Assembly (NCBI GenBank): GCA_017618435.1
Contig: JAFZUH010000199.1
Span: forward strand, 1 to 59,573
DNA length: 59,573 nucleotides
Origin: Bacteroidales bacterium
GTDB lineage: Bacteria; Bacteroidota; Bacteroidia; Bacteroidales; WCHB1-69
Direction: 5' to 3'
The notes beneath the pieces are model-generated. The model saw only the letters and a list, made by a program, of their open reading frames with translations. It was not told the DNA's origin and ran no database searches. This document shows, piece after piece, positions 1 to 9,822 of this stretch. Both the position numbers and the translations under genes were made by a program. Every line of letters begins with the position of its first letter. The first letter of the stretch is position 1.

Positions 1-255
1 ATCATATTTCTTCAGTATTTCTCCTTGTCCCACATAGGCACTATCTGCATATAAATTCTGCCCTTTATCCTTTTCTGTAAGCAAATTGTCTAATGATTGT
101 GAATCGTGTGATGAGGCAGTGGTAGTTTCTTGACTGATTATCAGTTTGCTTTTTGTATCTCCTTTGATATGGTTTTTGTATCCATAATAGTTTACTCCTC
201 CTTTTTGTGTCCAGCGGGCATCTATATCCTTTTGGCTTTTTTTATGTGGCCGGTC
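1..255 (-). mobile_element. IS5-family DDE transposase gene remnant (5'-truncated, runs off the left edge)
   Basis: Not in the ORF track because it has no start codon. The minus-strand frame is open from 255 to 1 and reads DRPHKKSQKDIDARWTQKGGVNYYGYKNHIKGDTKSKLIISQETTTASSHDSQSLDNLLTEKDKGQNLYADSAYVGQGEILKKYD. This is the central DDE region typical of IS5/IS4-type transposases. An in-frame stop at 256-258 and the neighbouring gene stop at 242-244 leave no room for the N-terminal part. Confidence 0.6.
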
Positions 256-1018
256 TTAAGGATGATTCCACAAATTCCCGACTTTGACCATTGAAGTCCT
301 CGTCAAAGAAAAAAAATACCGGATGGTCCTCCATGATATGAAGGAATATGTTCATACGCTCATAATCTTGTTCGCAGGAAAGAGCGATATCTCCCTCACG
401 CAACCATCGGCGAATGCCCGGCAGAAATTTACCTGCAGGACCGGCAAGACGCGGAACAACAACAGGCAAATAGCAACTGACATTCTTGCACAAAGTATCT
501 CCAAACTGAAACTCTTGTCCCTCGGTAGCATGAACATGTCCGAACAAATGATATTTCGGCTTCGATTTCATCATAAAATTCAATATCTCAGGACTTCCCA
601 AACCCTCATCCAGCACACCGTATGGCGGACAATGTGTCACCAGCACATCAATATCCGTCGGAATATCTTCATCAGCAATCAAAGCATTGCCGTTAATAGA
701 ACAAATAACCACACCATCACAATCCATAACAGCATTTTGCATTACCAGTATTCCCTTATCGGTCATAGTCTTTTCAATCTCTTCCGCTTGGTCAAGTTCG
801 AAAGAAAGTTCATGGTTTCCATGCACAAAGATCTTCCACTTCGCTGGCAGTCCTGCAAACCAGTCGATGAAATCATCATACTCCCCACCCTTCAGGTCAT
901 CCTCCACGGCATCACCGGCACAAATCACGACATCGGCATCCTCCGGCATCTGCAGGCGGTGATGATTGCCGTGGGTGTCAGAGAATGCGAAGATGCTTAT
1001 TTCGTTGATTCTGAACAT
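242..1018 (-). CDS. calcineurin-like metallophosphoesterase (small YfcE/MJ0936-type core plus a ~70-aa C-terminal extension)
   Basis: 258 aa with motifs SDTHGNHH, AGDAV, GNHE, THCPP and GHVH in the canonical order. It starts 8 bp after the upstream gene stop. Confidence 0.8.
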   Translation of the reverse strand: MFRINEISIFAFSDTHGNHHRLQMPEDADVVICAGDAVEDDLKGGEYDDFIDWFAGLPAKWKIFVHGNHELSFELDQAEEIEKTMTDKGILVMQNAVMDCDGVVICSINGNALIADEDIPTDIDVLVTHCPPYGVLDEGLGSPEILNFMMKSKPKYHLFGHVHATEGQEFQFGDTLCKNVSCYLPVVVPRLAGPAGKFLPGIRRWLREGDIALSCEQDYERMNIFLHIMEDHPVFFFFDEDFNGQSREFVESSLRPAT

Positions 1019-1026
1019 TCCAAAAG

Positions 1027-1920
1027 TTAAATGCTCTCTACTACAGATTTAAAGTTATCCTGGGTGCAGAATGTGAAGCTGAATGAAGACGCCATTTTGC
1101 TGATTTCATCCTTACTATAGCCATATTTCTTCTTCAGGTTGAAATAATGAAGGATTGCCTTGTAAATTGACTTGAAATCAATTGTCTCTGCCATTTCCTT
1201 CTCATCGCTGAAGAGATCCTGTATCCGTTGTTTATCGGCTGGATTCTCCACGAATGCTAGGAGTTCATTCGACGGACGATATGCCAGATATATGAAATAC
1301 ACGATCTTCTCGCCACCGCTCAAAACCATGTTCGCTATTCCGGAAAGGTGACAAAGCATCTGTTTGAGATCGAAGTAGCCCGAATCCTTATTTTCCCAGG
1401 AAAGATAGAGTGTATCCTTAGAACGATCATAATCAAGTTTCCCGTCAAGCATCGGGATTATGCCCTCTAACAGCATCCTATGGCCCTTGCGCAAATCCGG
1501 TCTGGAGTAGTTATAAAACTCATGGCATTTTGCTTCTACGAAGACATTCTTTGATTTCAAGTAACCATCGAGATTGGCCGGATATCCGCCAAGACTTGTC
1601 GGCAACTGCTTTTCATATGCAAAGCCATCAAACTGCTGACCTTGGCTATACATGAAACGACTGGAAGAAGCGTAAGATGCCATCTTTGGTGGATATATAA
1701 TGCCATTTCTAGTATATTCTTGCATCTCGCCTCCCTTGCCATTGTCAAACTGTGCTTTCACTTCTCCTGGCATCCTATCCACATACTCCTGCCATTCTTG
1801 GTTAGTATAGTAATTGTGAAAAGTGCGGCCATTCACTACATAACCTACACTCAGGTCACCGCCGTCCAACTGTTTTTTTGCCCGATCAAAAATGTCGGTA
1901 ATATTCATTTCTTTATCCAT
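1027..1920 (-). CDS. hypothetical protein, possible PD-(D/E)xK restriction-endonuclease-like fold
   Basis: 297-aa ORF with no competing frame. It has a Ser-rich segment (KMASYASSSRFMY) followed by LDGY...FVEAKCHE (D...ExK). Assignment is by motif only. Confidence 0.5.
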   Translation of the reverse strand: MDKEMNITDIFDRAKKQLDGGDLSVGYVVNGRTFHNYYTNQEWQEYVDRMPGEVKAQFDNGKGGEMQEYTRNGIIYPPKMASYASSSRFMYSQGQQFDGFAYEKQLPTSLGGYPANLDGYLKSKNVFVEAKCHEFYNYSRPDLRKGHRMLLEGIIPMLDGKLDYDRSKDTLYLSWENKDSGYFDLKQMLCHLSGIANMVLSGGEKIVYFIYLAYRPSNELLAFVENPADKQRIQDLFSDEKEMAETIDFKSIYKAILHYFNLKKKYGYSKDEISKMASSFSFTFCTQDNFKSVVESI

Positions 1921-2049
1921 TTTATTTGTTTGTTTTATTTAAAAGTTTTTTGACTGTTTTTCTCAACTCTCATGCTCCATCCTCTCCTCAACACCCAAAC
2001 ATATCACATATTGAATAATCTTTCTCTGCATCTATAAAAACAAGTGTCA

Positions 2050-3861
2050 TTACCAGTAACGAGTTTGAAGATAGGTGATGAGGTCTTTGTATTTTTCGTT
2101 TTCTTTCAATGGGGAAAGCAGTTCTTCTGGGTCGATGATTTTGAACTTGGATTTGTCTTTTAATGTCGGGATATAATTGTCTTCAATTGCAGACTTTAAT
2201 TCCATGTGTTCATTTGGAATGATCATGATATGGATATAATCATCAGCCTCAATTCCGCAGTCTTTATGCCGGATGATTTGCTCAACCAACAAGGTTTGGC
2301 GCATTAGTTCATAATAAGGATCTGATTTGTATAAATCATTCCAACATTTCAAATTAGACTTTTCATCTATTAGTTTAGGATAACGTTCTAAGCTACTCTC
2401 TTCTGCTTCTTTGCCATAGTATGTTTCCGTATATTTCCATTCAATAGGTATGAGTAATTTTCTTCCATCTGTTGTCTGAACATAAACCAAAGCATCTACA
2501 GAAGTGCAATTTGCGCCTCTTGTTTCATGTTTTTCGCCCAAAAGCTTTTTGTTTTTACAAACAAATTCAAAAGTGATATAGCCACCATCTTTATCCAACG
2601 GAGCTACAAGTACTTGTTCTATTTGCAGGCCTGTTGCTTTTTCAATAATAGCTTTAATTGCTGCATCATCTTTTCGCAAAGCAAAAAGGTGATTTAGGCA
2701 ATGTATTTGGGATGACACAAGATGCCCCGATGGTTTTTGTTTCATTGCATTCTCTCCCCACCATGAAATTTTATGGTCTAAGAAATATTGTTTGCTATCT
2801 TCATAAAGATTATACGCACTATCCTTTTCTTGAAGAACATATTTTCTATTTGCTCCTTGATAAAAGCCATTGTTCTTCGCAGTTTTTGACAAACAATTGT
2901 TATAGTAGTTAATCTGTTTTTTTCTTTCTTGATAATAATAGTCTCTTGACATTGCTTTATTTAGTTTATGACTATTGTTTAGATAAATTAAATCATCATT
3001 ATATTTATTTTTGAAACAATAGCAAGAGAACTCGATAAATTTGTCCTCCTCTTCTTTATCTGCAAATGCAAAAACAAACTTCGGTTTGGCATTCTCTATT
3101 TTCAATGATTTTTCCAGAATACCTAATTCTTGTTTTTGCTTCAATAAATCTTTCATCTCTTGGACAAAATGACCGTTCACATCTCTTCCTATTGTATGAT
3201 TGAAGCAATCAATATGCGGTTTGACTCCTGATGCTCCTCCAGTAGCGTCCATACCTTTTTTCAATTCAATAACCACCAATTGCCCATTATGGATGGCTAT
3301 AATGTCAAAACGAGGAACCTTTTTGTCGAGTTTTCCATCATAAAAAAACTTCGAATTACGGCTTACTGCATATTCTAAATCCAATACAATATAATCAGTA
3401 TCCTTTCTATTGGTAATGGCAATCTTTTGTTGCTCTTGTTTTTCTCTATGAGATATTTTTAGAGTGTCATTTAGAGTTTCTTCCCATTTTTTCATTACAG
3501 CTTTTGCTTGGCTGAAGTAACATTCTACCTTTAAATGATTTAAAGGAGAACTAAGATTTTCTATCAAACCATCTCTTAGATCAACAAGTTTATCAATTAT
3601 ATGTTTTGCATTAACATCACCTTTTTTAGCCTTTTCTTGTAAATGTGTTTTCCGTTCTTTATTACAATCTTTGTAGAAATAAAATTCATCAAAGTAGAAA
3701 CTACGAGGATTTATTTTTAGAATATTTCCTCCCTGGTAATACACATTGATGTAGTTGTCTCTGATTTGCAAATCCAATTCGGAATCAGATAAAATGTACT
3801 CCAATAATGGTTTCCACTCTCCTTGGAGTTTTTTTATGAAATTGTCTGATAATTTTCTCAT
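2050..3861 (-). CDS. large hypothetical protein with two PD-(D/E)xK-like nuclease modules
   Basis: 603 aa. The first core is RFDIIAIHNGQLVVIELKKG. The C-terminal half has PSGHLVSSQIHCLNHLF followed by SVDALVYV...LIPIEWKYTE. No ATPase or methylase motifs seen. Confidence 0.55.
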   Translation of the reverse strand: MRKLSDNFIKKLQGEWKPLLEYILSDSELDLQIRDNYINVYYQGGNILKINPRSFYFDEFYFYKDCNKERKTHLQEKAKKGDVNAKHIIDKLVDLRDGLIENLSSPLNHLKVECYFSQAKAVMKKWEETLNDTLKISHREKQEQQKIAITNRKDTDYIVLDLEYAVSRNSKFFYDGKLDKKVPRFDIIAIHNGQLVVIELKKGMDATGGASGVKPHIDCFNHTIGRDVNGHFVQEMKDLLKQKQELGILEKSLKIENAKPKFVFAFADKEEEDKFIEFSCYCFKNKYNDDLIYLNNSHKLNKAMSRDYYYQERKKQINYYNNCLSKTAKNNGFYQGANRKYVLQEKDSAYNLYEDSKQYFLDHKISWWGENAMKQKPSGHLVSSQIHCLNHLFALRKDDAAIKAIIEKATGLQIEQVLVAPLDKDGGYITFEFVCKNKKLLGEKHETRGANCTSVDALVYVQTTDGRKLLIPIEWKYTETYYGKEAEESSLERYPKLIDEKSNLKCWNDLYKSDPYYELMRQTLLVEQIIRHKDCGIEADDYIHIMIIPNEHMELKSAIEDNYIPTLKDKSKFKIIDPEELLSPLKENEKYKDLITYLQTRYW

Positions 3862-3895
3862 AACTAATTACATTTTTAATTTTTTAACATCTAAT

Positions 3896-4750
3896 TTATT
3901 TACTATTCAACACTTCAATCGCTCTTTCCGCATCCTCCTCCGTAATTCCAACGACGGGATTGATGCGGATGAAGTGGCTCTCCTGCTCGGGCAGTACTTC
4001 GTTCAAATCGTCTAAGATAACGTATCGTTGAGTGTCGCTATTGACTTGCAATACTTCATCAAAATAAGCCTTGATTTCATTTCCCCTGCTGGAACAGAAC
4101 ATCTCCGGTGTAATCTCATCCAGTTGGCTCAAGTCCGTTTCCAGCAGCTTGTCATCATCCGTGTGCAGAGGCGTAATGCCAGCAATCTGCCCAGGAAGGT
4201 TGCGGTCTGCCCACATCCGCTGCATATCTTTCAAACCCATATAACGCCACGAAGAACTCACTATAATCCATGCATCGGTGGCCTCAATGATTTTCCGGAG
4301 GTTCTCTACCGCTTTGGGGGCGAATTTCGGACCGTAATAATCCCGTGTCGGCACACCTTCCACCGTCATTTTGGCAAAATGGTTTTCCGTATTCAGCACG
4401 CCATCGAAATCGAGGAAAATCAGCGGGCGTTCCCTCGCCTCAAGCAACATCTCTTCTTCCAAAAAAGCGGTCATGTCCGTGTCGAAAACAATTTCCTCCG
4501 GCATCGGAGGCATCCTCTGGAAAATCTTGCTGCTTCCGGTAAAGACATCCTCATTTGTCAGAAAATCATGCAGTTTGCTCATAAAGAACGACCTGTTTTC
4601 CTCTACAAGCTCCAATACCATCTCACTCAAAAAGTCGTGAATCTCGTTTTTCAGTTGTGTCCGCTGCACTTCGTCAAATGCCACATCACCTGTTTCCAAA
4701 TACCTTTCCCACAAGGGCATGTTATAACACAATCCTATCATTCCGTCCAT
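3896..4750 (-). CDS. HAD-superfamily phosphatase-like protein with an unknown ~100-aa N-terminal domain
   Basis: 284 aa. HAD motif I is LIFLDFDGVLN, motif II-like is IVSSSWR, motif IV-like is VILDDL. The pattern recalls the HAD domains of Swiss-army-knife RNA-repair proteins (from memory, not searched). Confidence 0.6.
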   Translation of the reverse strand: MDGMIGLCYNMPLWERYLETGDVAFDEVQRTQLKNEIHDFLSEMVLELVEENRSFFMSKLHDFLTNEDVFTGSSKIFQRMPPMPEEIVFDTDMTAFLEEEMLLEARERPLIFLDFDGVLNTENHFAKMTVEGVPTRDYYGPKFAPKAVENLRKIIEATDAWIIVSSSWRYMGLKDMQRMWADRNLPGQIAGITPLHTDDDKLLETDLSQLDEITPEMFCSSRGNEIKAYFDEVLQVNSDTQRYVILDDLNEVLPEQESHFIRINPVVGITEEDAERAIEVLNSK

Positions 4751-4843
4751 AATCCTTTGCGTTTAATTGTTACTGGTAACCTCTATTTTTTGTAAATTTT
4801 CCATATCTACTCTACTTACATTCTTTAAATTCATATTGGCTAA

Positions 4844-5764
4844 TCATTTTTTATTCGATTTGTAATTAACATTCATTCTTTTTATGATCTGTGCCATATT
4901 CTTCCTCAACTCCTTCGGTTCCAGCACCTCCACACCGTCCCCGAACGAGAGCACATCCTGCCGGAAATCATAATCGGTTGTCAGGTAGTATGAAAAAATG
5001 CTATAGTCCTTGTGGGTTTCAACTTCCTGCTGGCTGGTGTGCAACGGCAGGGAGCGGAAATAGAGCACTTGCTTGCCGTAAGCTTTCAACAACACTCTTT
5101 CCCGCTTCATGTTCGGATAGACACGCACACCATAGATATTACGGAAATAATCGTCTGCCGTAAACTCTTCCGGCATCGTAAAATCGTCCGGAAGAATGTC
5201 CACCATGGTCATGCGGTCCAGTGCATACATGTGCGGCCCGTCCGGATCGCCCTTGTATGCATACAGATACCAGCGGCGCTTGAACTCCTTGAGAAAATAG
5301 GGTTCCACAATCATCGCTTCCTCTTCTGTTTTATAATAGCTTTTGTATCGGATTTCCATCTTTTTGCCATCCCGTATCGCCTGAATGATATCTGCAAGGT
5401 ATTTGTGACGGGAAGGCACATTTTCAAAGAAGATGCGGTCACGGAGATGGGCACTGTCGTTGAGGAGACTGCTCAAACACAATGCGTCCAGCATCCATTC
5501 CTTTACGCTGTTGCCGCATAGGTCGTCTAAGTTTTCAATGTAATAAGTGTTGTGGCTTCTGTCGCAAGCGATATCAATGCCGAAAATATCGGAAATGGCG
5601 GACACATGGTTCGCAAATGTGCGGGTAGCAAGTTCCTTCCCTTCGTCGTTGACGGAACTTCTCTTCCACAAAGCCTTTATTTCCTTAAGGGTCAGCGGCC
5701 CATGGCTCTGCAAGGTTTCCAAAAGCCAGATGTACGATTTAAAATAATTCTTTGCCATAATCAA
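4844..5764 (-). CDS. WYL-domain transcriptional regulator (N-terminal wHTH)
   Basis: 306 aa. The N-terminus is HTH-like (GPLTLKEIKALWKRSS...RTFANHVSAISDIFG) and the central signature is FKRRWYLYAY. It is the first gene of the co-directional block. The start could be M3 at 5758. Confidence 0.8.
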   Translation of the reverse strand: MIMAKNYFKSYIWLLETLQSHGPLTLKEIKALWKRSSVNDEGKELATRTFANHVSAISDIFGIDIACDRSHNTYYIENLDDLCGNSVKEWMLDALCLSSLLNDSAHLRDRIFFENVPSRHKYLADIIQAIRDGKKMEIRYKSYYKTEEEAMIVEPYFLKEFKRRWYLYAYKGDPDGPHMYALDRMTMVDILPDDFTMPEEFTADDYFRNIYGVRVYPNMKRERVLLKAYGKQVLYFRSLPLHTSQQEVETHKDYSIFSYYLTTDYDFRQDVLSFGDGVEVLEPKELRKNMAQIIKRMNVNYKSNKK

Positions 5765-5859
5765 AATGCAAAAATACCACTTAATTCTGCAAAAAAGTGG
5801 CAGAAGCTGATTTTTTTTCTTTTTACATTTTCATTATCGTATTTCTCAAGAAAAAATTA

Positions 5860-5867
5860 TATCTTTG
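5860..5867 (+). promoter_or_regulatory. Bacteroides-type -7 promoter box (TATCTTTG) upstream of kdsD
   Basis: TAnnTTTG match 24 nt upstream of GTG 5891. No clean -33 TTTG. Confidence 0.35.
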
Positions 5868-5890
5868 TAATTTATATAAATTCTTTTTCA

Positions 5891-6859
5891 GTGAAAACAA
5901 GAGAAGATATAAAGAATATTGCAATTCAGTGCATTAAAGATGAAGCCGATGCTATAGCCAAATTGACGGGTTTCATCAATGATGATTTTATGGATTGTTG
6001 TGAAGCCATATACAACAATACCGAAGGACGTGTTATCATTTGCGGCATAGGTAAAAGTGCCAATATAGCACAAAAAATTGTTGCCACCTTCAACTCTACA
6101 GGCACGCCTGCATTGTTCATGCATGCTGCAGACGCCATACATGGAGATTTGGGGATGGTGCAAAAACACGATATAGTGATATGCCTGTCCAAAAGCGGCA
6201 ACACACCGGAAACCAACTTATTGATACCCATGATAAAATCGCGGGGCAATAAAATTGCCGCCATTGTAGGAAACACTCATTCTTATTTGGCTGCTCATGC
6301 AGATTGGGTTCTCAATTGCACGGTAAGCAAAGAAGCATGTCCTAACAATTTAGCGCCCACGGCAAGTTCTACAGCACAATTAGTGATAGGAGACGCATTG
6401 GCGGTATGCCTTATCAGCATGCGGGGCTTCTCTCCTGAAGATTTTGCCAAAGTGCACCCCGGCGGCGCATTGGGCAAACAATTATACATGACCGTAGAAG
6501 ATATTTTCCGCGATAATGAAATTCCGATGGTGGATCCCTCTTCCGACATCAATAAGATTATATACGAAATTTCATCCAAACGATTGGGAGTAACGGCTGT
6601 AATTGACAATAACACCATTGTGGGAATTATCACCGACGGTGATTTGCGACGCATGTTGGAAAAAAATCCCGACCCCAGACAAATTATTGCCCGTGATATC
6701 ATGAACCGCTCCCCTAAAACAATCGATCATAACCAGCTGGCTATAAAAGCGTTGGAAATCATGCGAAAATACAATATCACAAGTATATTGGTTACAGAAA
6801 ACGAAAAATATGCAGGTGTAATTCATTTACACGACATTATTAAAGAAGGAATAATTTAA
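5891..6859 (+). CDS. kdsD: arabinose-5-phosphate isomerase (KdsD/KpsF; SIS plus tandem CBS domains)
   Basis: SIS block GIGKSANIAQKIVATFNSTGTPALFMHAADAIHGDLG and a C-terminal CBS pair. The track ORF begins at 5552, but its first 113 codons overlap the WYL gene and promoter region. GTG 5891 gives a typical 322 aa. Confidence 0.85.
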   Translation: MKTREDIKNIAIQCIKDEADAIAKLTGFINDDFMDCCEAIYNNTEGRVIICGIGKSANIAQKIVATFNSTGTPALFMHAADAIHGDLGMVQKHDIVICLSKSGNTPETNLLIPMIKSRGNKIAAIVGNTHSYLAAHADWVLNCTVSKEACPNNLAPTASSTAQLVIGDALAVCLISMRGFSPEDFAKVHPGGALGKQLYMTVEDIFRDNEIPMVDPSSDINKIIYEISSKRLGVTAVIDNNTIVGIITDGDLRRMLEKNPDPRQIIARDIMNRSPKTIDHNQLAIKALEIMRKYNITSILVTENEKYAGVIHLHDIIKEGII

Positions 6860-6923
6860 CATGCAGGCAACAAATCGGCATAAAAATACATCTTATTGTA
6901 CAAAACATTAAAAACCTTTTATC

Positions 6924-8396
6924 ATGAACAAAAGAAATATATTAATATGTGCGATAATAATGATGTTATCTATGACTCAAGCACAAAAAAAGCATCATAA
7001 AAACGGCTATCAAATCAAATTCATACTCGAACAGGTAGAAGATACCATGTTATATGTTGCCAATTACTATGCCGACAAAACTTATATGTTCGATTCCGTT
7101 TTTTTATCGCCCAAAGAGCCCTATACATTTATTCTTCAAGGAGACAGTGCCATTCCAAGAGGTGTTTATGTTGTTGCAGGTCAAAACAAAATGAAATATT
7201 TTGATTTTATCGTTGACTCTTCATGCCATTTCACCGCCCATGTTACCAATGTATCTCCCAAACATTTGGATTTTGTAAACAATATCACCTACCTCAATAG
7301 TCCCGAAAATACGCAAGCTAATGAATTCATGCGCGTTGCCGGTCATTTCCAACAAGAGATGGCCCGTATCCACAGAGAAATGAAAAATGCCGAAAGCGAA
7401 CAAAAACAGCCATCGGCCAAACAAATAAAAGCCAAAAAGGAGGAATGGATATCCTATAAAGATTCCTTGACACGCTACACCCAACAGTTTATAGAAAAAT
7501 ACGGCACCACCACCCTTTTCGGCAAAGCACAACGCTTGGCACAAGATGTGCCCGTGCCGGAAGCTCCAAGAGATAACAAAGGACGACTTTTGGATTCCAA
7601 TTTTTCTTATTATTATCATGTCAACCATTATTGGGATTTTTGTGATTTTTCCGATTCTGCATTAATCAACACGCCCATTTTTCACCCCCGTTTGGAAATG
7701 TATTTCGGTCAGGTGGTATATCCTTTGGTGGATTCCATTATCAAATATGCGGATATTTTATTGGATAAAATGAAAGACAATGAGGCTTTGTTCCGTTATA
7801 CTGTATGGTATATCACCAATCACTATGAACGCAGTCAGTATGTAGGCCATGACGCTGTATTTGTACATATGGTTCTCACTTATTATGCACAAGGGCGTTG
7901 TCCGTGGACCGATGAAGCGGTATTGGAACGCATGACAGACCACGCAGAACAGCTCAACCATGTGCTGATAGGCAAATACGCCCCAGAATTATGGATGTTT
8001 GACACCAACAATGTATTGCTGTCGAATTATGGTTTTAACAAAAAATACACCATCATGTGGTTTTGGGATGTGGATTGCGGACATTGCAAAACGGCAACCC
8101 CCAAATTAATTGAATTCTACAATACATATAAAGATACTTTTGATTTTGAAATATATGCAATATGTATGAGTTCCGATACTGCCAAATGGAAAAAAGCCAT
8201 TGTGGAGAAAGGATTACCATGGACTAATGTAGGAGGAAACAGAGCCAACATAGACTTCAGGAAAATATACGGAGTAACCACCACCCCTTATTTATATGTA
8301 TTGGACCGTGAAAAAAAGATAATCGTTAAAAAAATAGGTGTGGAAGATTTGGAACCCTTCTTCCGCAATCACGAAGCGGGCAAACGTATACAATAA
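6924..8396 (+). CDS. secreted thioredoxin-fold protein (TlpA/ResA-like thiol:disulfide oxidoreductase)
   Basis: 490 aa with signal peptide MNKRNILICAIIMMLSMTQA and a C-terminal WFWDVDCGHCK CxxC motif. Confidence 0.65.
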   Translation: MNKRNILICAIIMMLSMTQAQKKHHKNGYQIKFILEQVEDTMLYVANYYADKTYMFDSVFLSPKEPYTFILQGDSAIPRGVYVVAGQNKMKYFDFIVDSSCHFTAHVTNVSPKHLDFVNNITYLNSPENTQANEFMRVAGHFQQEMARIHREMKNAESEQKQPSAKQIKAKKEEWISYKDSLTRYTQQFIEKYGTTTLFGKAQRLAQDVPVPEAPRDNKGRLLDSNFSYYYHVNHYWDFCDFSDSALINTPIFHPRLEMYFGQVVYPLVDSIIKYADILLDKMKDNEALFRYTVWYITNHYERSQYVGHDAVFVHMVLTYYAQGRCPWTDEAVLERMTDHAEQLNHVLIGKYAPELWMFDTNNVLLSNYGFNKKYTIMWFWDVDCGHCKTATPKLIEFYNTYKDTFDFEIYAICMSSDTAKWKKAIVEKGLPWTNVGGNRANIDFRKIYGVTTTPYLYVLDREKKIIVKKIGVEDLEPFFRNHEAGKRIQ

Positions 8397-8424: not shown

Positions 8425-9822
8425 ATGAAGACAACAAAAATAATTCGGCTTTTGAAAGAAACGGACAGCATAGGTTTGAATACTGCTGTCAATATTAAAG
8501 GATGGGTACGCACCAAGAGGGGCAATAACAATGTAGCCTTTCTCAACGTCAATGACGGATCCATAGTTCACGGCATACAAGTAGTGATAGATGTACCCGG
8601 TTTTGATGAAGAAATGCTCAAAAGCATCACTACCGGTGCCTGCATATCGGTAGACGGCATATTGGTGGCTTCCATGGGTAAAGGTCAAGGAGTGGAAATT
8701 CAGGCTCAACATATAGAGATTCTCGGCACTGCCGACCCTCAGATATATCCTCTTCAGAAAAAAGGACATAGCATGGAATTTTTACGCAGCATAGCCCATC
8801 TGCGTCCCCGCACCAACTATTTTTCATGTGTATTGCGCCTAAGACACGCCATGGCTTTTGCCATACACCAATATTTTAACGACAAAGGCTTTGTATATTT
8901 ACACACACCCATCATCACCAGCTCCGATTGTGAAGGTGCAGGAGAAATGTTCCATGTTACCACCTTGGACATTGCCAATCCTCCACGCACTCCAAACGGA
9001 GATGTGGACTATAAGCAGGATTTCTTCGGAAGGCATACCAGCCTTACCGTTTCCGGTCAACTTAACGGCGAATTAGGGGCTATGGCATTGGGCAATATCT
9101 ACACTTTCGGACCCACATTCAGAGCAGAAAATTCCAATACGCCAAGACATTTGGCTGAATTTTGGATGATAGAGCCGGAAATGGCATTCTACGATTTGGA
9201 TGACAATATGGATATGGCTGAAGATTTCATCAAACATTGTGTACGATATGCATTGGAACACAATATGGATGATTTGCAATTCCTCAACGATTTGTTTGAC
9301 AAAGAACTTATCAGCCGTCTGCAATCGGTGTTGGATGTGGACTTTGTACGCCTGCCTTACACGGAAGCTATTGATATCTTGTCCAAATCGGGACAAAAAT
9401 TTGAATATCCTATATCATGGGGCATAGATTTACAATCGGAACACGAGCGATATTTGGTGGAACAACATTTTAAAAAGCCCGTCATCCTTATAGATTACCC
9501 TAAAGAAATCAAAGCTTTCTATATGAAACAAAACGATGACGGCAAAACAGTAAGAGCCATGGACGTGCTGTTTCCTAAAATAGGCGAAATAATAGGAGGC
9601 TCCCAAAGAGAAGAAAGTTTGGAAAAACTCTTGAATGTGATTCATGAACGTAAGATGAACGAACAAGAACTGTGGTGGTATTTGGAAACACGAAAATTCG
9701 GTACCGCCCCGCATAGCGGTTTCGGTTTGGGTTTCGAACGTTTATTATTATTTGTTACCGGCATGAGTAACATTCGCGATGTGATTCCATTTCCGAGAAC
9801 TCCTCAAAACGCTGAATTCTAA
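8425..9822 (+). CDS. asnS: asparagine--tRNA ligase
   Basis: 465 aa, class IIb synthetase. It has an N-terminal OB domain, [21 protein letters not shown], and [29 protein letters not shown]. Confidence 0.95.

What the first reader, a model, noticed from the sequence alone, without database searches (positions are those of the whole stretch)
242..5764. WYL-headed five-gene operon: candidate uncharacterised defence or nucleic-acid-conflict system
All five ORFs are co-directional on the minus strand with short gaps (93, 34, 129 and 8 bp). They sit between an IS5 remnant and the divergently transcribed housekeeping gene kdsD. Gene 1 has the RRWYLYAY signature and wHTH layout of WYL regulators, a class known to control BREX (BrxR) and CBASS (CapW) islands. 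Four genes follow it. The first is a HAD-like phosphatase (FLDFDGVLN, SSSWR, ILDD) behind an unknown ~100-aa N-domain. The second is a 603-aa protein with two separate D...ExK cores. The third is a 297-aa protein with a third D...ExK core. The fourth is a calcineurin-type phosphoesterase. No methyltransferase, ATPase or helicase is present, so it does not look like a classical R-M system. I cannot map this gene set onto any named defence system from memory. The nuclease, phosphatase and phosphoesterase content fits either a DNA/RNA-targeting effector set or an RNA damage-and-repair module.
Basis: partly seen in the sequence, partly recalled or inferred. Interest (0 to 1): 0.8.

Follow-up and report, generated by a model that had tools for sequence, protein, structure and literature searches.

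The report
WYL-controlled nuclease and phosphoesterase defence-type operon
A gut Bacteroidales bacterium carries one regulator-headed operon that joins two separately recurring nuclease-plus-phosphatase gene modules; it looks like an untested anti-phage or anti-mobile-DNA cassette and includes a nuclease family that no domain library I searched holds.

Summary
The five minus-strand genes, their gaps and their motifs are real. The operon is not one conserved five-gene system. It is a composite of two modules that occur separately elsewhere, and I found the exact five-gene set nowhere else.

Module B is WYL regulator, then a nuclease slot, then a small metallophosphoesterase (PADLOC candidate PDC-S10), usually followed by two small genes. 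It is widespread in gut and rumen Bacteroidales. Some copies lie on CTnDOT-like conjugative elements.

Module A is a HAD_SAK_2 phosphatase plus a ~600-aa protein with two PD-(D/E)xK nuclease domains. Elsewhere it carries its own WYL gene.

The window's WYL is B-type, so the A effectors appear to have been inserted behind a B regulator. An IS5 remnant has removed the 3' end of the cassette and made the phosphoesterase C-terminus chimeric.

Gene 4 belongs to an unannotated family (710 clusters at 50% identity) that is a distant relative of Pfam REase-ARP. A conserved 18-nt site lies 27-44 nt upstream of the WYL start.

Best reading: a WYL-gated, inducible nucleic-acid-degrading conflict cassette, with the substrate unknown. 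The closest precedents are Metis/PUA-Cal-HAD and the predicted ARG-centred ADP-ribose systems. It is a member of neither.

The parts
5785..5802 (-). Candidate WYL operator, TGCCACTTTTTTGCAGAA (consensus TGCCA-N5-TTGCMGAA). It overlaps the expected -33 TTTG element of a Bacteroides-type promoter.
   Evidence: It is the only match in the 59.6-kb window. The same site lies 26-44 nt upstream of B-type WYL starts in L010-12, L021, L022, L023, L025 and L101-103, and forms an inverted pair in L010-12, L021 and L023. It also heads the longer operons of L001-5 and L024, and occurs in L107. DNA binding was not tested.
5769..5776 (-). Putative -7 promoter box TATTTTTG (Bacteroides consensus TAnnTTTG), 10 nt upstream of the ATG.
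   Evidence: Read from the sequence. A TAnnTTTG box sits just upstream of the WYL start in the seven related upstream regions that carry the conserved architecture. The promoter consensus is from my own knowledge. No transcription data.
4844..5758 (-). Gene 1: WYL-WCX transcription regulator of the 'B-type'.
   Evidence: Pfam WYL E 1.9e-15 and WCX E 2.8e-11. PADLOC WYL E 7.8e-32. It is 55-61% identical to the WYL genes of module B loci and 33-37% identical to module A WYL genes. Closest solved relatives are PafBC (6sj9, E 5.8e-9) and several WYL-domain chains that I take to be DriD.
3896..4750 (-). Gene 2: HAD-superfamily phosphatase (HAD_SAK_2, aa 110-274) behind an unannotated 109-aa N-terminal domain.
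   Evidence: Pfam E 1.6e-26. It is 83% identical to the HAD of L107. A HAD gene lies directly upstream of two-domain gene-3 relatives in 17 of 23 loci that have enough flank. HAD is fused to the nuclease in P0232/L020. The HAD domain alone is common in phages (phrog_1818 E 8e-30; 304 phage records). The N-domain has no family.
2962..3861 (-). Gene 3, N-terminal domain (aa 1-300): unannotated PD-(D/E)xK nuclease domain.
   Evidence: E140, D161, E163, D186, E199 and K201 are invariant in 22 homologues. No Pfam hit. AF2 model of the whole protein has pLDDT 84. This domain is a separate gene next to the C-domain in many loci.
2050..2814 (-). Gene 3, C-terminal domain (aa 350-603): REase-ARP / PDDEXK_13 nuclease.
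   Evidence: Pfam E 4.7e-37 and 7.4e-20. D456, E474 and K476 are invariant. Foldseek gives only weak PD-(D/E)xK hits (Can2, Nt.BspD6I, MGME1, MspI). No phage matches.
1027..1920 (-). Gene 4: 297-aa nuclease of an uncatalogued family, a distant relative of short REase-ARP proteins. It occupies the nuclease slot of module B.
   Evidence: No hit in four libraries. E65, D118, E129, K131, E134, D184, K186, Q187 and H191 are invariant. AF2 pLDDT 95. No significant PDB or viral fold match; the top weak hits are PD-(D/E)xK nucleases. hhalign against short REase-ARP gives 92% probability, E 5.7e-7. 710 clusters at 50% identity. No phage, plasmid or viral-contig hits.
470..1018 (-). Gene 5, catalytic part (aa 1-183): small calcineurin-like metallophosphoesterase, PADLOC PDC-S10.
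   Evidence: Pfam Metallophos E 2.3e-14. PDC-S10 E 5.3e-40. The metal-binding motifs DxH, GD, GNHE, H and GHxH are all present. Closest solved relative is MPPED2 (3rl4, E 2.5e-15). It follows the nuclease at 2-8 nt or with overlap in L001-5, L010-12, L021, L022, L024 and L101-103.
242..469 (-). Gene 5, 75-aa C-terminal extension plus stop: foreign sequence read through after a rearrangement.
   Evidence: Relatives end at about aa 185-190. DNA homology stops near nt 500. Residues ~196-244 resemble aa 38-86 of a 227-aa ORF that sits between the YAcAr and WYL genes in L024 (E 2e-6 in a small database). No Pfam hit.
1..245 (-). N-terminally truncated IS4/IS5-type DDE transposase fragment at the contig edge. 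It lies where the two small downstream cassette genes (153 aa and 166 aa) are found in other loci.
   Evidence: DDE_Tnp_1 E 2.3e-12, profile positions 21-94 of 200. Translation. The 153-aa and 166-aa genes are present in L010, L021, L022 and L101-103.

Best explanation
The locus is a transcriptionally gated conflict (defence-type) cassette built from two nuclease-plus-phosphoesterase effector pairs under one WYL regulator.

**Proposed working**
1. In the resting state the WYL protein binds the TGCCA-N5-TTGCMGAA site over the promoter and holds expression at a set level.
2. A nucleic-acid-derived ligand made during phage infection, foreign-DNA entry or DNA damage binds the WYL domain and switches the operon on. 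The ligand could be ssDNA, as I recall for DriD and PafBC, or a nucleotide or oligonucleotide.
3. Three PD-(D/E)xK nuclease domains (two in gene 3, one in gene 4) then cut nucleic acid, most likely DNA.
4. The partner phosphoesterases are the HAD enzyme with gene 3 and the MPPED2-like metallophosphoesterase with gene 4. They act on the products or on free nucleotides. They could strip terminal phosphates or degrade nucleotides so that breaks cannot be religated and nucleotides cannot be reused. Alternatively they could clear the inducing nucleotide so that the system resets.

**Shown:** domain identities, intact catalytic residues, recurrent gene pairing, replacement of one nuclease family by another in the same slot, a conserved upstream site, presence on conjugative elements and next to defence genes, and absence of the nucleases from phages.

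**Inferred:** defence function, ligand, substrate, direction of regulation, and the role of each phosphoesterase.

**History (inferred):** a HAD + tandem-nuclease pair was inserted between the regulator and the nuclease of a module B cassette. A later IS-linked rearrangement removed the cassette's 3' genes.
For: **Module B recurs.** WYL -> gene-4 family -> phosphoesterase (-> 153 aa -> 166 aa) occurs in L001-5, L010-12, L021, L022 and L024. WYL -> short REase-ARP -> phosphoesterase -> 153 aa -> 166 aa occurs around P0323, which is indexed in 693 blocks of the collection. WYL -> GIY-YIG-like (judged from sequence motifs only) -> TM protein -> phosphoesterase -> REase-ARP occurs in L184. Different nucleases in one slot is the displacement pattern that PMC9503650 lists as a hallmark of conflict systems.

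**Module A recurs.** HAD + tandem nuclease + WYL occurs in L013/14, L104-107 and many of L109-L188. HAD lies directly upstream in 17 of 23 two-domain loci with enough flank, and HAD-nuclease fusions exist.

**Regulator.** The window WYL is B-type.

**Operator.** The candidate site is unique in the window and sits at the same distance from the WYL start in seven distinct cassettes.

**Catalytic residues.** They are invariant in all three nuclease domains. All metallophosphoesterase and HAD motifs are present.

**Context.**
- CTnDOT-like ICE cargo.
- An IetA-like AAA + REase-ARP + DrmC-like PLD triad next door.
- AAA_15/21, Mrr_N, a second WYL gene and AbiEii nearby.
- Insertion between different housekeeping genes in different genomes.

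**Host side only.** The nucleases are absent from phage, plasmid and viral-contig collections.

**Precedents.** PADLOC lists the phosphoesterase as candidate PDC-S10. Calcineurin-like + HAD enzymes are validated anti-phage effectors in Metis and PUA-Cal-HAD.
Against: - No experiment bears on this locus or on PDC-S10 in the papers I could search.
- The exact five-gene set was found nowhere else.
- The window copy is damaged. The phosphoesterase C-terminus is chimeric and the two downstream genes are missing, so it may be partly inactive.
- The right flank is housekeeping (kdsD, a thioredoxin-like protein; asnS judged from its translation) and the left flank is unseen. A defence-island context cannot be shown for this copy.
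- The substrate is unknown. Neither nuclease model has a significant structural neighbour.
- The upstream motif was derived partly from the same sequences in which it was then counted.
- In Clostridia the gene-4 family has quite different partners: a 2-TM protein, Thg1-like, Macro and KAP NTPase proteins. Its role may not be the same everywhere.
Confidence: 0.5

Rival explanations
1. Nucleotide-pool depletion is the main effector mechanism, as in Metis/PUA-Cal-HAD. The metallophosphoesterase, helped by the HAD enzyme, hydrolyses NAD+ or (d)NTPs to abort infection. The nucleases are secondary effectors or produce the signal.
For: - MisA/PUA-Cal is a calcineurin-like enzyme that cleaves NAD+ and dNDPs. 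Its HAD partner either feeds it or clears the trigger.
- The window phosphoesterase is closest to MPPED2, which I recall as a small-nucleotide phosphodiesterase.
- PADLOC lists it as a single-gene candidate.
- It is the most constant effector of module B.
Against: - The phosphoesterase has no PUA-like or other sensor domain; it is about 185 aa and stands alone.
- The HAD gene pairs with the nuclease, not with the phosphoesterase, and belongs to another HAD family (PF18143 against PF13419).
- Module A works elsewhere without any metallophosphoesterase.
- L023, L025 and L075-77 have WYL + gene 4 without the phosphoesterase.
- No PDB chain other than MPPED2 matched by sequence.
Confidence: 0.17
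2. It is a reduced relative of the predicted ARG-centred systems that counter viral ADP-ribosylation. WYL senses ADP-ribose-derived molecules, the phosphatases process ADP-ribose derivatives, and the REase-ARP nucleases are a second line of attack.
For: - Gene 3 carries Pfam REase-ARP, which I link by name and description to the rapidly evolving REase of those systems.
- Those systems use WYL or Nudix regulators plus calcineurin-like, HD or HAD phosphatases.
- Gene 4 is a distant REase-ARP relative.
- Related loci carry NADAR + ART-PolyVal (L006-9), Macro (L029, L048, L067) and a YAcAr/SLOG gene (L001-5).
Against: - The defining ARG glycohydrolase is absent, as are the rhodanese-phosphatase, ARPP and chaperone genes.
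- Those systems were described in actinobacteria, planctomycetes and proteobacteria, not Bacteroidales.
- The ADP-ribose role is itself only a prediction.
Confidence: 0.12
3. It is an RNA damage-and-repair or end-healing module. The HAD_SAK_2 enzyme and the metallophosphoesterase heal 2',3'-cyclic or 3'-phosphate RNA ends after ribotoxin attack, and the PD-(D/E)xK proteins trim the RNA.
For: - The HAD domain belongs to the family named for 'Swiss army knife' RNA-repair proteins.
- PMC9503650 describes that HAD as processing terminal RNA phosphates.
- Calcineurin-type phosphoesterases heal RNA ends in bacterial Pnkp (my own knowledge).
- Gene-4 relatives lie next to Thg1-like tRNA-repair enzymes in L028 and L037.
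- WYL regulators are proposed to sense RNA fragments with cyclic ends.
Against: - Pfam finds no RNA ligase domain (RtcB, Rnl, ATP-grasp) and no polynucleotide kinase domain in any of the five window proteins; the neighbours I scanned or whose precomputed Pfam hits were listed show none either.
- Three nuclease domains with intact catalytic residues outnumber any repair function.
- The mobile, variable context fits attack better than housekeeping repair.
Confidence: 0.08
4. This copy is a decaying remnant. The genes were brought together by IS-mediated rearrangement and no longer act as a system.
For: - A truncated IS5 transposase abuts the operon, the phosphoesterase has a chimeric C-terminus, and the 153-aa and 166-aa genes are lost.
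- The five-gene arrangement is unique.
- GC drops to 0.30-0.36 across gene 3.
Against: - All five ORFs are intact, with complete catalytic motifs and no frameshifts.
- The promoter and operator are conserved.
- HAD -> gene-3-type nuclease -> short REase-ARP also occurs in L120, a parallel A+B composite.
Confidence: 0.08

Closest known systems
Metis (MisA/MisB) = PUA-Cal-HAD anti-phage system of E. coli (bioRxiv 10.1101/2025.11.05.686725; 10.64898/2026.01.15.699771)
   Same: It combines a calcineurin-like metallophosphoesterase with a HAD phosphatase in a conflict context. Both enzymes act on nucleotides. The HAD enzyme either co-processes the substrate or clears the trigger.
   Different: Metis is post-translationally triggered: m6dAMP binds a PUA-like domain fused to the calcineurin enzyme. 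Here there is no PUA domain and control is transcriptional, through WYL. The HAD belongs to another family (PF18143, not PF13419) and pairs with a nuclease. Three PD-(D/E)xK domains are present and Metis has none.
Predicted ARG-centred systems against viral ADP-ribosylation (Iyer et al. 2022, Viruses 14:1977, PMC9503650, section 3.8)
   Same: A WYL (or Nudix) one-component regulator, calcineurin-like and HAD phosphatases, and a rapidly evolving REase that I take to be Pfam REase-ARP. The architecture is modular and shows displacement of equivalent parts.
   Different: The ARG glycohydrolase core, rhodanese-phosphatase, ARPP and chaperones are all absent. The host phylum differs. The ARG systems are themselves untested predictions.
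PADLOC phage-defence candidate PDC-S10
   Same: The window phosphoesterase and its L101 relative match the PDC-S10 profile at E 5e-40 and 1e-39.
   Different: PDC-S10 is a single-gene candidate. Here the gene is the constant member of a multi-gene cassette with a WYL regulator and a variable nuclease. I found no experimental test in the searchable literature.
WYL-regulated defence operons (BrxR-BREX, CapW-CBASS) and WYL damage regulators (PafBC, DriD)
   Same: An HTH-WYL-WCX regulator heads an effector operon and has a conserved site at its own promoter. The closest solved WYL relatives are PafBC and chains I take to be DriD.
   Different: The effectors are unrelated to BREX or CBASS. Whether this WYL represses (as I recall for BrxR and CapW) or activates (PafBC and DriD) is unknown. 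BrxR and CapW were not among the sequence hits at E < 0.01.
'Swiss army knife' RNA-repair proteins and Pnkp-type end-healing enzymes (Burroughs and Aravind 2016; not readable here)
   Same: They use the HAD_SAK_2 phosphatase domain and a calcineurin-type phosphoesterase, the two classic end-healing chemistries.
   Different: This locus has no ligase or kinase, and nucleases dominate it.

Membership tests
HTH-WYL-WCX transcription regulators | WYL domain followed by a WCX domain | tested here: met
   Pfam WYL E 1.9e-15 (aa 122-188) and WCX E 2.8e-11 (aa 222-297). PADLOC WYL E 7.8e-32.
HTH-WYL-WCX transcription regulators | N-terminal winged-helix DNA-binding domain | tested here: inconclusive
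   No HTH family passed E 0.1 for aa 1-100. The region is conserved in homologues, but no fold was predicted.
HTH-WYL-WCX transcription regulators | A specific operator at its own promoter | tested here: met
   TGCCA-N5-TTGCMGAA occurs once in the window, 27-44 nt upstream of the ATG, and at the same position in seven related cassettes. Binding itself was not tested.
Metis / PUA-Cal-HAD | PUA-like sensor domain fused to the calcineurin-like effector | tested here: not met
   The phosphoesterase has only a Metallophos domain. Relatives are standalone proteins, almost all 181-200 aa.
Metis / PUA-Cal-HAD | HAD phosphatase (PF13419 type) as the adjacent partner of the calcineurin gene | tested here: not met
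   The HAD is PF18143, is separated from the phosphoesterase by two genes, and pairs or fuses with the nuclease elsewhere.
Metis / PUA-Cal-HAD | m6dAMP-triggered NAD+ or dNTP depletion | not testable with these tools
   Needs biochemistry and metabolomics.
Calcineurin-CE effector family (Nicastro et al. 2023) | Membership of the Calcineurin-CE clade by profile | not tested
   The paper and its profiles were not available. The only solved sequence relative is MPPED2.
ARG-centred anti-ADP-ribosylation systems (PMC9503650) | ADP-ribosylglycohydrolase (ARG) core gene | tested here: not met
   None of the five proteins has an ARG, Macro or NADAR domain.
ARG-centred anti-ADP-ribosylation systems (PMC9503650) | WYL or Nudix regulator, coupled phosphatase and REase-ARP nuclease | tested here: met
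   WYL, HAD, Metallophos and REase-ARP are all present. Description of the systems.
RNA-repair 'Swiss army knife' / Pnkp-Hen1-type systems | RNA ligase and polynucleotide kinase modules | tested here: not met
   Pfam finds no ligase or kinase domain in the five window proteins.
RNA-repair 'Swiss army knife' / Pnkp-Hen1-type systems | HAD_SAK_2 phosphatase domain | tested here: met
   PF18143 E 1.6e-26.
PD-(D/E)xK (restriction-endonuclease fold) nucleases: gene 4 | Conserved D...(D/E)xK catalytic signature | tested here: met
   D118, E129 and K131 are invariant in 25 sequences down to 31% identity.
PD-(D/E)xK (restriction-endonuclease fold) nucleases: gene 4 | Restriction-endonuclease fold supported by structure comparison | tested here: inconclusive
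   Model pLDDT 95. The best Foldseek hits are PD-(D/E)xK enzymes (AbaSI, LmuA, SfsA; viral restriction and homing endonucleases), but all have E > 0.01 and low TM-scores.
Pfam REase-ARP (PF22558): gene 4 | Match to the family profile | tested here: not met
   None of 25 family members hits PF22558, even at E 5. A distant relationship is supported only by hhalign against short REase-ARP proteins (92%, E 5.7e-7).
Classical restriction-modification | Cognate methyltransferase | tested here: not met
   Pfam finds no methyltransferase domain in the operon.
PADLOC PDC-S10 candidate | Match to the PDC-S10 profile | tested here: met
   E 5.3e-40, aa 5-182 against profile positions 8-200 of 223.

The most novel reading that the evidence does not exclude
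WYL -> nuclease -> small metallophosphoesterase (module B) and HAD + tandem nuclease + WYL (module A) are two unnamed anti-phage or anti-mobile-element systems that are widespread in the gut microbiome. In both, each nuclease is obligatorily paired with a phosphoesterase. The phosphoesterase either makes the damage irreparable (dephosphorylated ends, non-recyclable nucleosides) or destroys the inducing nucleotide to reset the WYL switch. That would be a 'nuclease plus end- or nucleotide-stripping' logic not yet described for any validated defence system. Gene 4 would then found a new nuclease family of several hundred clusters, which in Clostridia works with a 2-TM partner instead.
Probability: 0.3. 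Interest if true: 0.7.

Novelty: new variant of a known kind. Interest (0 to 1): 0.55.

Why it matters
**What it would add.** If the cassettes protect, they would add two common defence systems to the little-explored immune repertoire of gut and rumen Bacteroidales. This is relevant to phage therapy, to microbiome engineering and to ICE biology, because one version rides on CTnDOT-like elements.

**Mechanistic question.** Four independent arrangements pair a nuclease with a phosphoesterase: HAD with the tandem nuclease (including fusions), and the metallophosphoesterase with gene 4, with short REase-ARP, or with GIY-YIG-like/REase-ARP. This asks what terminal-phosphate or nucleotide chemistry adds to nucleolytic immunity. 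It could also link the new Metis/PUA-Cal-HAD biology to transcriptionally gated systems.

**Annotation.** The work defines an unannotated nuclease family and traces it to REase-ARP, which would improve annotation of several hundred protein clusters.

**Regulation.** The conserved operator gives a direct handle for finding the WYL ligand, an open question for most WYL regulators.

Tried and rejected
**Searches that found nothing or little**
- PDB profile searches with the gene 4 and gene 3 alignments found nothing even at E 10.
- Foldseek of both models against PDB, and of gene 4 against BFVD, gave no significant hits. They served only as weak support for the fold.
- hhalign of gene 4 against gene 3 showed no relationship.
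- Gene 3's N-domain against the N-halves of gene-4 fusion proteins (P0378, P0369), and the whole gene-3 profile against the 217-aa L010 nuclease, gave only motif-level resemblance, not significant. I make no homology claim.
- Rfam on 1-7000 found no RNA family.
- The sigma-70 promoter and terminator scan was no better than shuffles, as expected for Bacteroidales.
- Phage, plasmid and viral-contig searches for genes 3 and 4 were empty.

**Literature**
- 'REase-ARP' as a text term is absent from the library. I traced the name through PMC9503650.
- Burroughs and Aravind 2016 and Nicastro et al. 2023 are not held. Calcineurin-CE membership and the original HAD_SAK description could therefore not be checked.
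- My guess that ARP meant 'AAA-REase-PLD' is dropped. 'ARG and Rhodanese-Phosphatase' fits better, by analogy with ARPP in that paper; this too is my inference.

**Errors of my own**
- My first operator pattern had the wrong spacing and found nothing.

**Readings rejected**
- A classical R-M system is rejected because there is no methyltransferase.
- A single conserved five-gene system is rejected because gene 3 and gene 4 relatives are never neighbours elsewhere.

Full report
**1.

Five ORFs lie head to tail on the minus strand at 5764-4844, 4750-3896, 3861-2050, 1920-1027 and 1018-242. The gaps are 93, 34, 129 and 8 nt.

Profile searches give the following:
- Gene 1: WYL + WCX.
- Gene 2: HAD_SAK_2 at aa 110-274.
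- Gene 3: REase-ARP/PDDEXK_13 at aa 350-603.
- Gene 4: nothing in Pfam, NCBIfam, PADLOC or PHROGs.
- Gene 5: Metallophos.

PADLOC adds one important hit. Gene 5 matches the phage-defence candidate PDC-S10 at E 5.3e-40.

These are D118/E129/K131 in gene 4, and D186/E199/K201 and D456/E474/K476 in gene 3. Bases 1-245 encode an N-terminally truncated DDE_Tnp_1 transposase. The divergent neighbour has SIS + CBS domains, like KdsD. An identical copy of gene 3 is on record from a 'Bacteroidales bacterium' MAG.

**2. The operon is a composite of two modules**

*Module B.* Neighbourhoods of gene-4 relatives in Bacteroidales repeatedly show WYL -> (optional 217-aa PD-(D/E)xK-like gene) -> gene-4 family -> ~187-aa metallophosphoesterase -> 153-aa gene -> 166-aa signal-peptide protein. 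This is seen in L010-12, L021 and L022. A version preceded by a YAcAr/SLOG gene sits in the cargo region of a CTnDOT-like conjugative element, in L001-5 and L024.

A widely indexed relative of the phosphoesterase (P0323, listed in 693 blocks of the collection) sits in the same cassette. There a short 323-aa REase-ARP protein occupies the nuclease slot. In L184 the slot holds a small protein that looks GIY-YIG-like from its motifs alone, plus a C-type REase-ARP.

*Module A.* Neighbourhoods of gene-3 relatives show HAD_SAK_2 -> ~600-aa tandem nuclease -> WYL, inserted between different housekeeping genes in different genomes.
- Among 80 metagenomic loci, a HAD gene lies directly upstream in 17 of 23 two-domain cases with enough flank.
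- The two nuclease domains are often separate adjacent genes.
- HAD-nuclease fusions exist.
- None of those 80 loci has a gene-4 relative, and only 5 have the phosphoesterase.

*The window.* Its WYL protein is 55-61% identical to module B regulators and only 33-37% identical to module A regulators. Its HAD protein is 83% identical to a module A HAD. The simplest history is that the A effector pair was inserted between the regulator and the nuclease of a B cassette. GC falls to 0.30-0.36 across gene 3. L120 carries a parallel composite, HAD -> gene-3 type -> short REase-ARP.

**3. The 3' end is damaged**

Relatives of the phosphoesterase are almost all 181-200 aa, against 258 aa here. Protein homology ends at about residue 183, and DNA homology ends near nt 500. 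Part of the extension resembles a fragment of a 227-aa gene that in L024 lies between the YAcAr and WYL genes. The 153-aa and 166-aa genes are replaced by the IS fragment. All catalytic motifs of the phosphoesterase are still present.

**4. Gene 4 is a new branch of a catalogued nuclease family**

- A profile of the family finds 710 clusters at 50% identity at E <= 1e-3. They come mostly from gut and rumen Bacteroidales and Clostridia.
- The AF2 model is confident (pLDDT 95) but has no significant neighbour in PDB or BFVD. The best weak hits are PD-(D/E)xK enzymes.
- Profile-profile comparison with short REase-ARP proteins gives 92% probability and E 5.7e-7 over the catalytic core (82% against a single sequence).
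- The two families share the motifs GxGxE, SSS, (F/Y)E, hD, E(A/S)K(C/F)xE(F/Y) and KQM(I/L)xH.
- They occupy the same cassette slot.

In Clostridia the family has other partners: a 2-TM protein in 17 loci, and Thg1-like, Macro, KAP NTPase and HTH_11 proteins. Some members are fused to an RNase T-type exonuclease domain or to N-terminal extensions with weak PD-(D/E)xK-type hits.

**5. Regulation**

Upstream regions of B-type WYL genes share TGCCA-N5-TTGCMGAA, followed by a TAnnTTTG box close to the ATG.
- The 18-mer occurs once in the 59.6-kb window, at 5785-5802, which is 27-44 nt before the ATG at 5758.
- It occurs in 17 of the 108 loci then held.
- Those 17 include every module B cassette of the gene-4/short-REase-ARP + phosphoesterase types at the equivalent position. 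The WYL -> gene 4 loci L075-77 have no exact match.
- L010-12, L021 and L023 carry an inverted pair 38-39 bp apart (start to start).
- In the ICE-borne versions it lies further upstream, at the head of a longer operon.

My own estimate of chance matches in about 1.3 Mb is roughly 0.1. The motif was derived partly from these same sequences, although L001-5, L024 and L107 are independent.

The closest solved relatives of the regulator are PafBC and WYL-domain chains that I take to be DriD. From my own knowledge these respond to ssDNA. The site overlaps the expected -33 element, so repression (BrxR/CapW style) or activation (PafBC/DriD style) are both possible.

**6. What is known nearby**

- The Pfam name REase-ARP is best explained by Iyer et al. 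2022 (PMC9503650). [quoted passage not shown] Those systems have WYL or Nudix regulators and calcineurin-like, HD or HAD phosphatases, and were proposed to counter viral ADP-ribosylation. The link from the Pfam name to this paper is my inference. The window shares the regulator, phosphatase and REase shell but lacks the ARG core.
- Two 2025-26 preprints validate a calcineurin-like + HAD defence, Metis/PUA-Cal-HAD. It senses m6dAMP through a PUA-like domain and depletes NAD+ or dNTPs. The HAD enzyme either clears the trigger or feeds the calcineurin enzyme. The window lacks the PUA sensor, uses a different HAD family, and pairs the HAD with a nuclease.
- The phosphoesterase's closest solved relative is MPPED2, which I recall as a small-nucleotide phosphodiesterase.
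- The HAD domain on its own is common in phages. The nucleases are absent from phages, plasmids and viral contigs.

**7. Interpretation**

The evidence fits a transcriptionally gated conflict cassette:
- a constant regulator plus a constant phosphoesterase, with rapid displacement of the nuclease;
- tight, sometimes overlapping or fused, nuclease-phosphoesterase pairs;
- carriage on ICEs and insertion at varied chromosomal sites;
- neighbours such as an IetA-like AAA / REase-ARP / DrmC-like PLD triad, AbiEii and Mrr_N.

I commit to nucleases as the effectors and phosphoesterases as product- or signal-processing partners, at confidence about 0.5. A Metis-like nucleotide-depletion reading is next (0.17). 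Then come an ADP-ribose-linked reading (0.12), RNA repair (0.08) and a decaying remnant (0.08).

The following are all untested: substrate, ligand, direction of regulation, and whether this damaged copy still works.

**8. Verdict**

This is a new variant of a known kind, namely a WYL-regulated nuclease and nucleotide-phosphoesterase conflict system. It is made of parts that are catalogued or listed as candidates but uncharacterised, plus one uncatalogued nuclease family. Interest is moderate to high for defence-system specialists, mainly because of the recurrent nuclease-phosphoesterase pairing and the abundance of module B in gut Bacteroidales.

Noticed in passing
L010:3073-6293 (also L021): A three-gene operon is transcribed divergently from the WYL cassette: a 547-aa AAA ATPase (PADLOC IetA-like, E 1e-30), a short 335-aa REase-ARP, and a 168-aa PLD nuclease (DrmC-like, E 1e-7). 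It may be a separate candidate defence triad.
   Followed up: partly
L029, L033, L040-42, L045, L050, L056, L060, L064, L070, L071, L078, L084, L088, L097, L099: In Clostridia the gene-4 nuclease family is preceded by a 210-240-aa protein with two N-terminal transmembrane helices. Several loci have a second, shorter gene-4 copy on the other side of it. No WYL gene or phosphoesterase is present there.
   Followed up: partly
L028:7171-7932, L037:113-844; L029:8941-10014, L048, L067: Gene-4 relatives lie directly next to Thg1-like tRNA(His) guanylyltransferase-family genes (Pfam E 6e-29) or Macro-domain proteins (E 7e-34). This hints at an RNA or ADP-ribose link for some family members.
   Followed up: partly
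window:242-469 and L024:6390-7073: The C-terminal extension of the window phosphoesterase resembles aa 38-86 of an unannotated 227-aa ORF that sits between the YAcAr and WYL genes in L024. This points to recombination between cassette variants.
   Followed up: partly
L107:5865-5882; L023:9556-9573; L025:8972-8989: The TGCCA-N5-TTGCMGAA site also occurs upstream of a module A operon whose WYL is only 35% identical to the window's. In L023 and L025 it occurs a second time, downstream of gene 4. This suggests shared operator recognition and additional regulated genes.
   Followed up: no
L006, L022-L024, L026, L027 (for example L024:4386-5486): Fragment-sized DnaE-like ORFs (DNA_pol3_alpha/finger, 294-979 aa) lie next to many Bacteroidales gene-4 cassettes. 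Their meaning is unknown.
   Followed up: no
L010:9985-10485, L001:9556-10062, L101:6098-6598: A 166-170-aa protein with an N-terminal signal or lipoprotein-like sequence travels with module B, and in L025 it lies on the opposite strand beside the WYL gene. A 153-aa protein with no family also travels with the module. Both are missing from the window.
   Followed up: partly
window:2000-3900: GC content falls to 0.30-0.36 across gene 3, against 0.42-0.48 in the flanking operon genes. This is consistent with separate acquisition.
   Followed up: no
L184:7586-8514 and 8725-9540: Downstream of the L184 cassette lie a P-loop (zeta-toxin/AAA-like) gene with a 107-aa partner, and a second, 271-aa metallophosphoesterase-like gene (both judged from sequence motifs only). 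The setting looks like a defence island.
   Followed up: no
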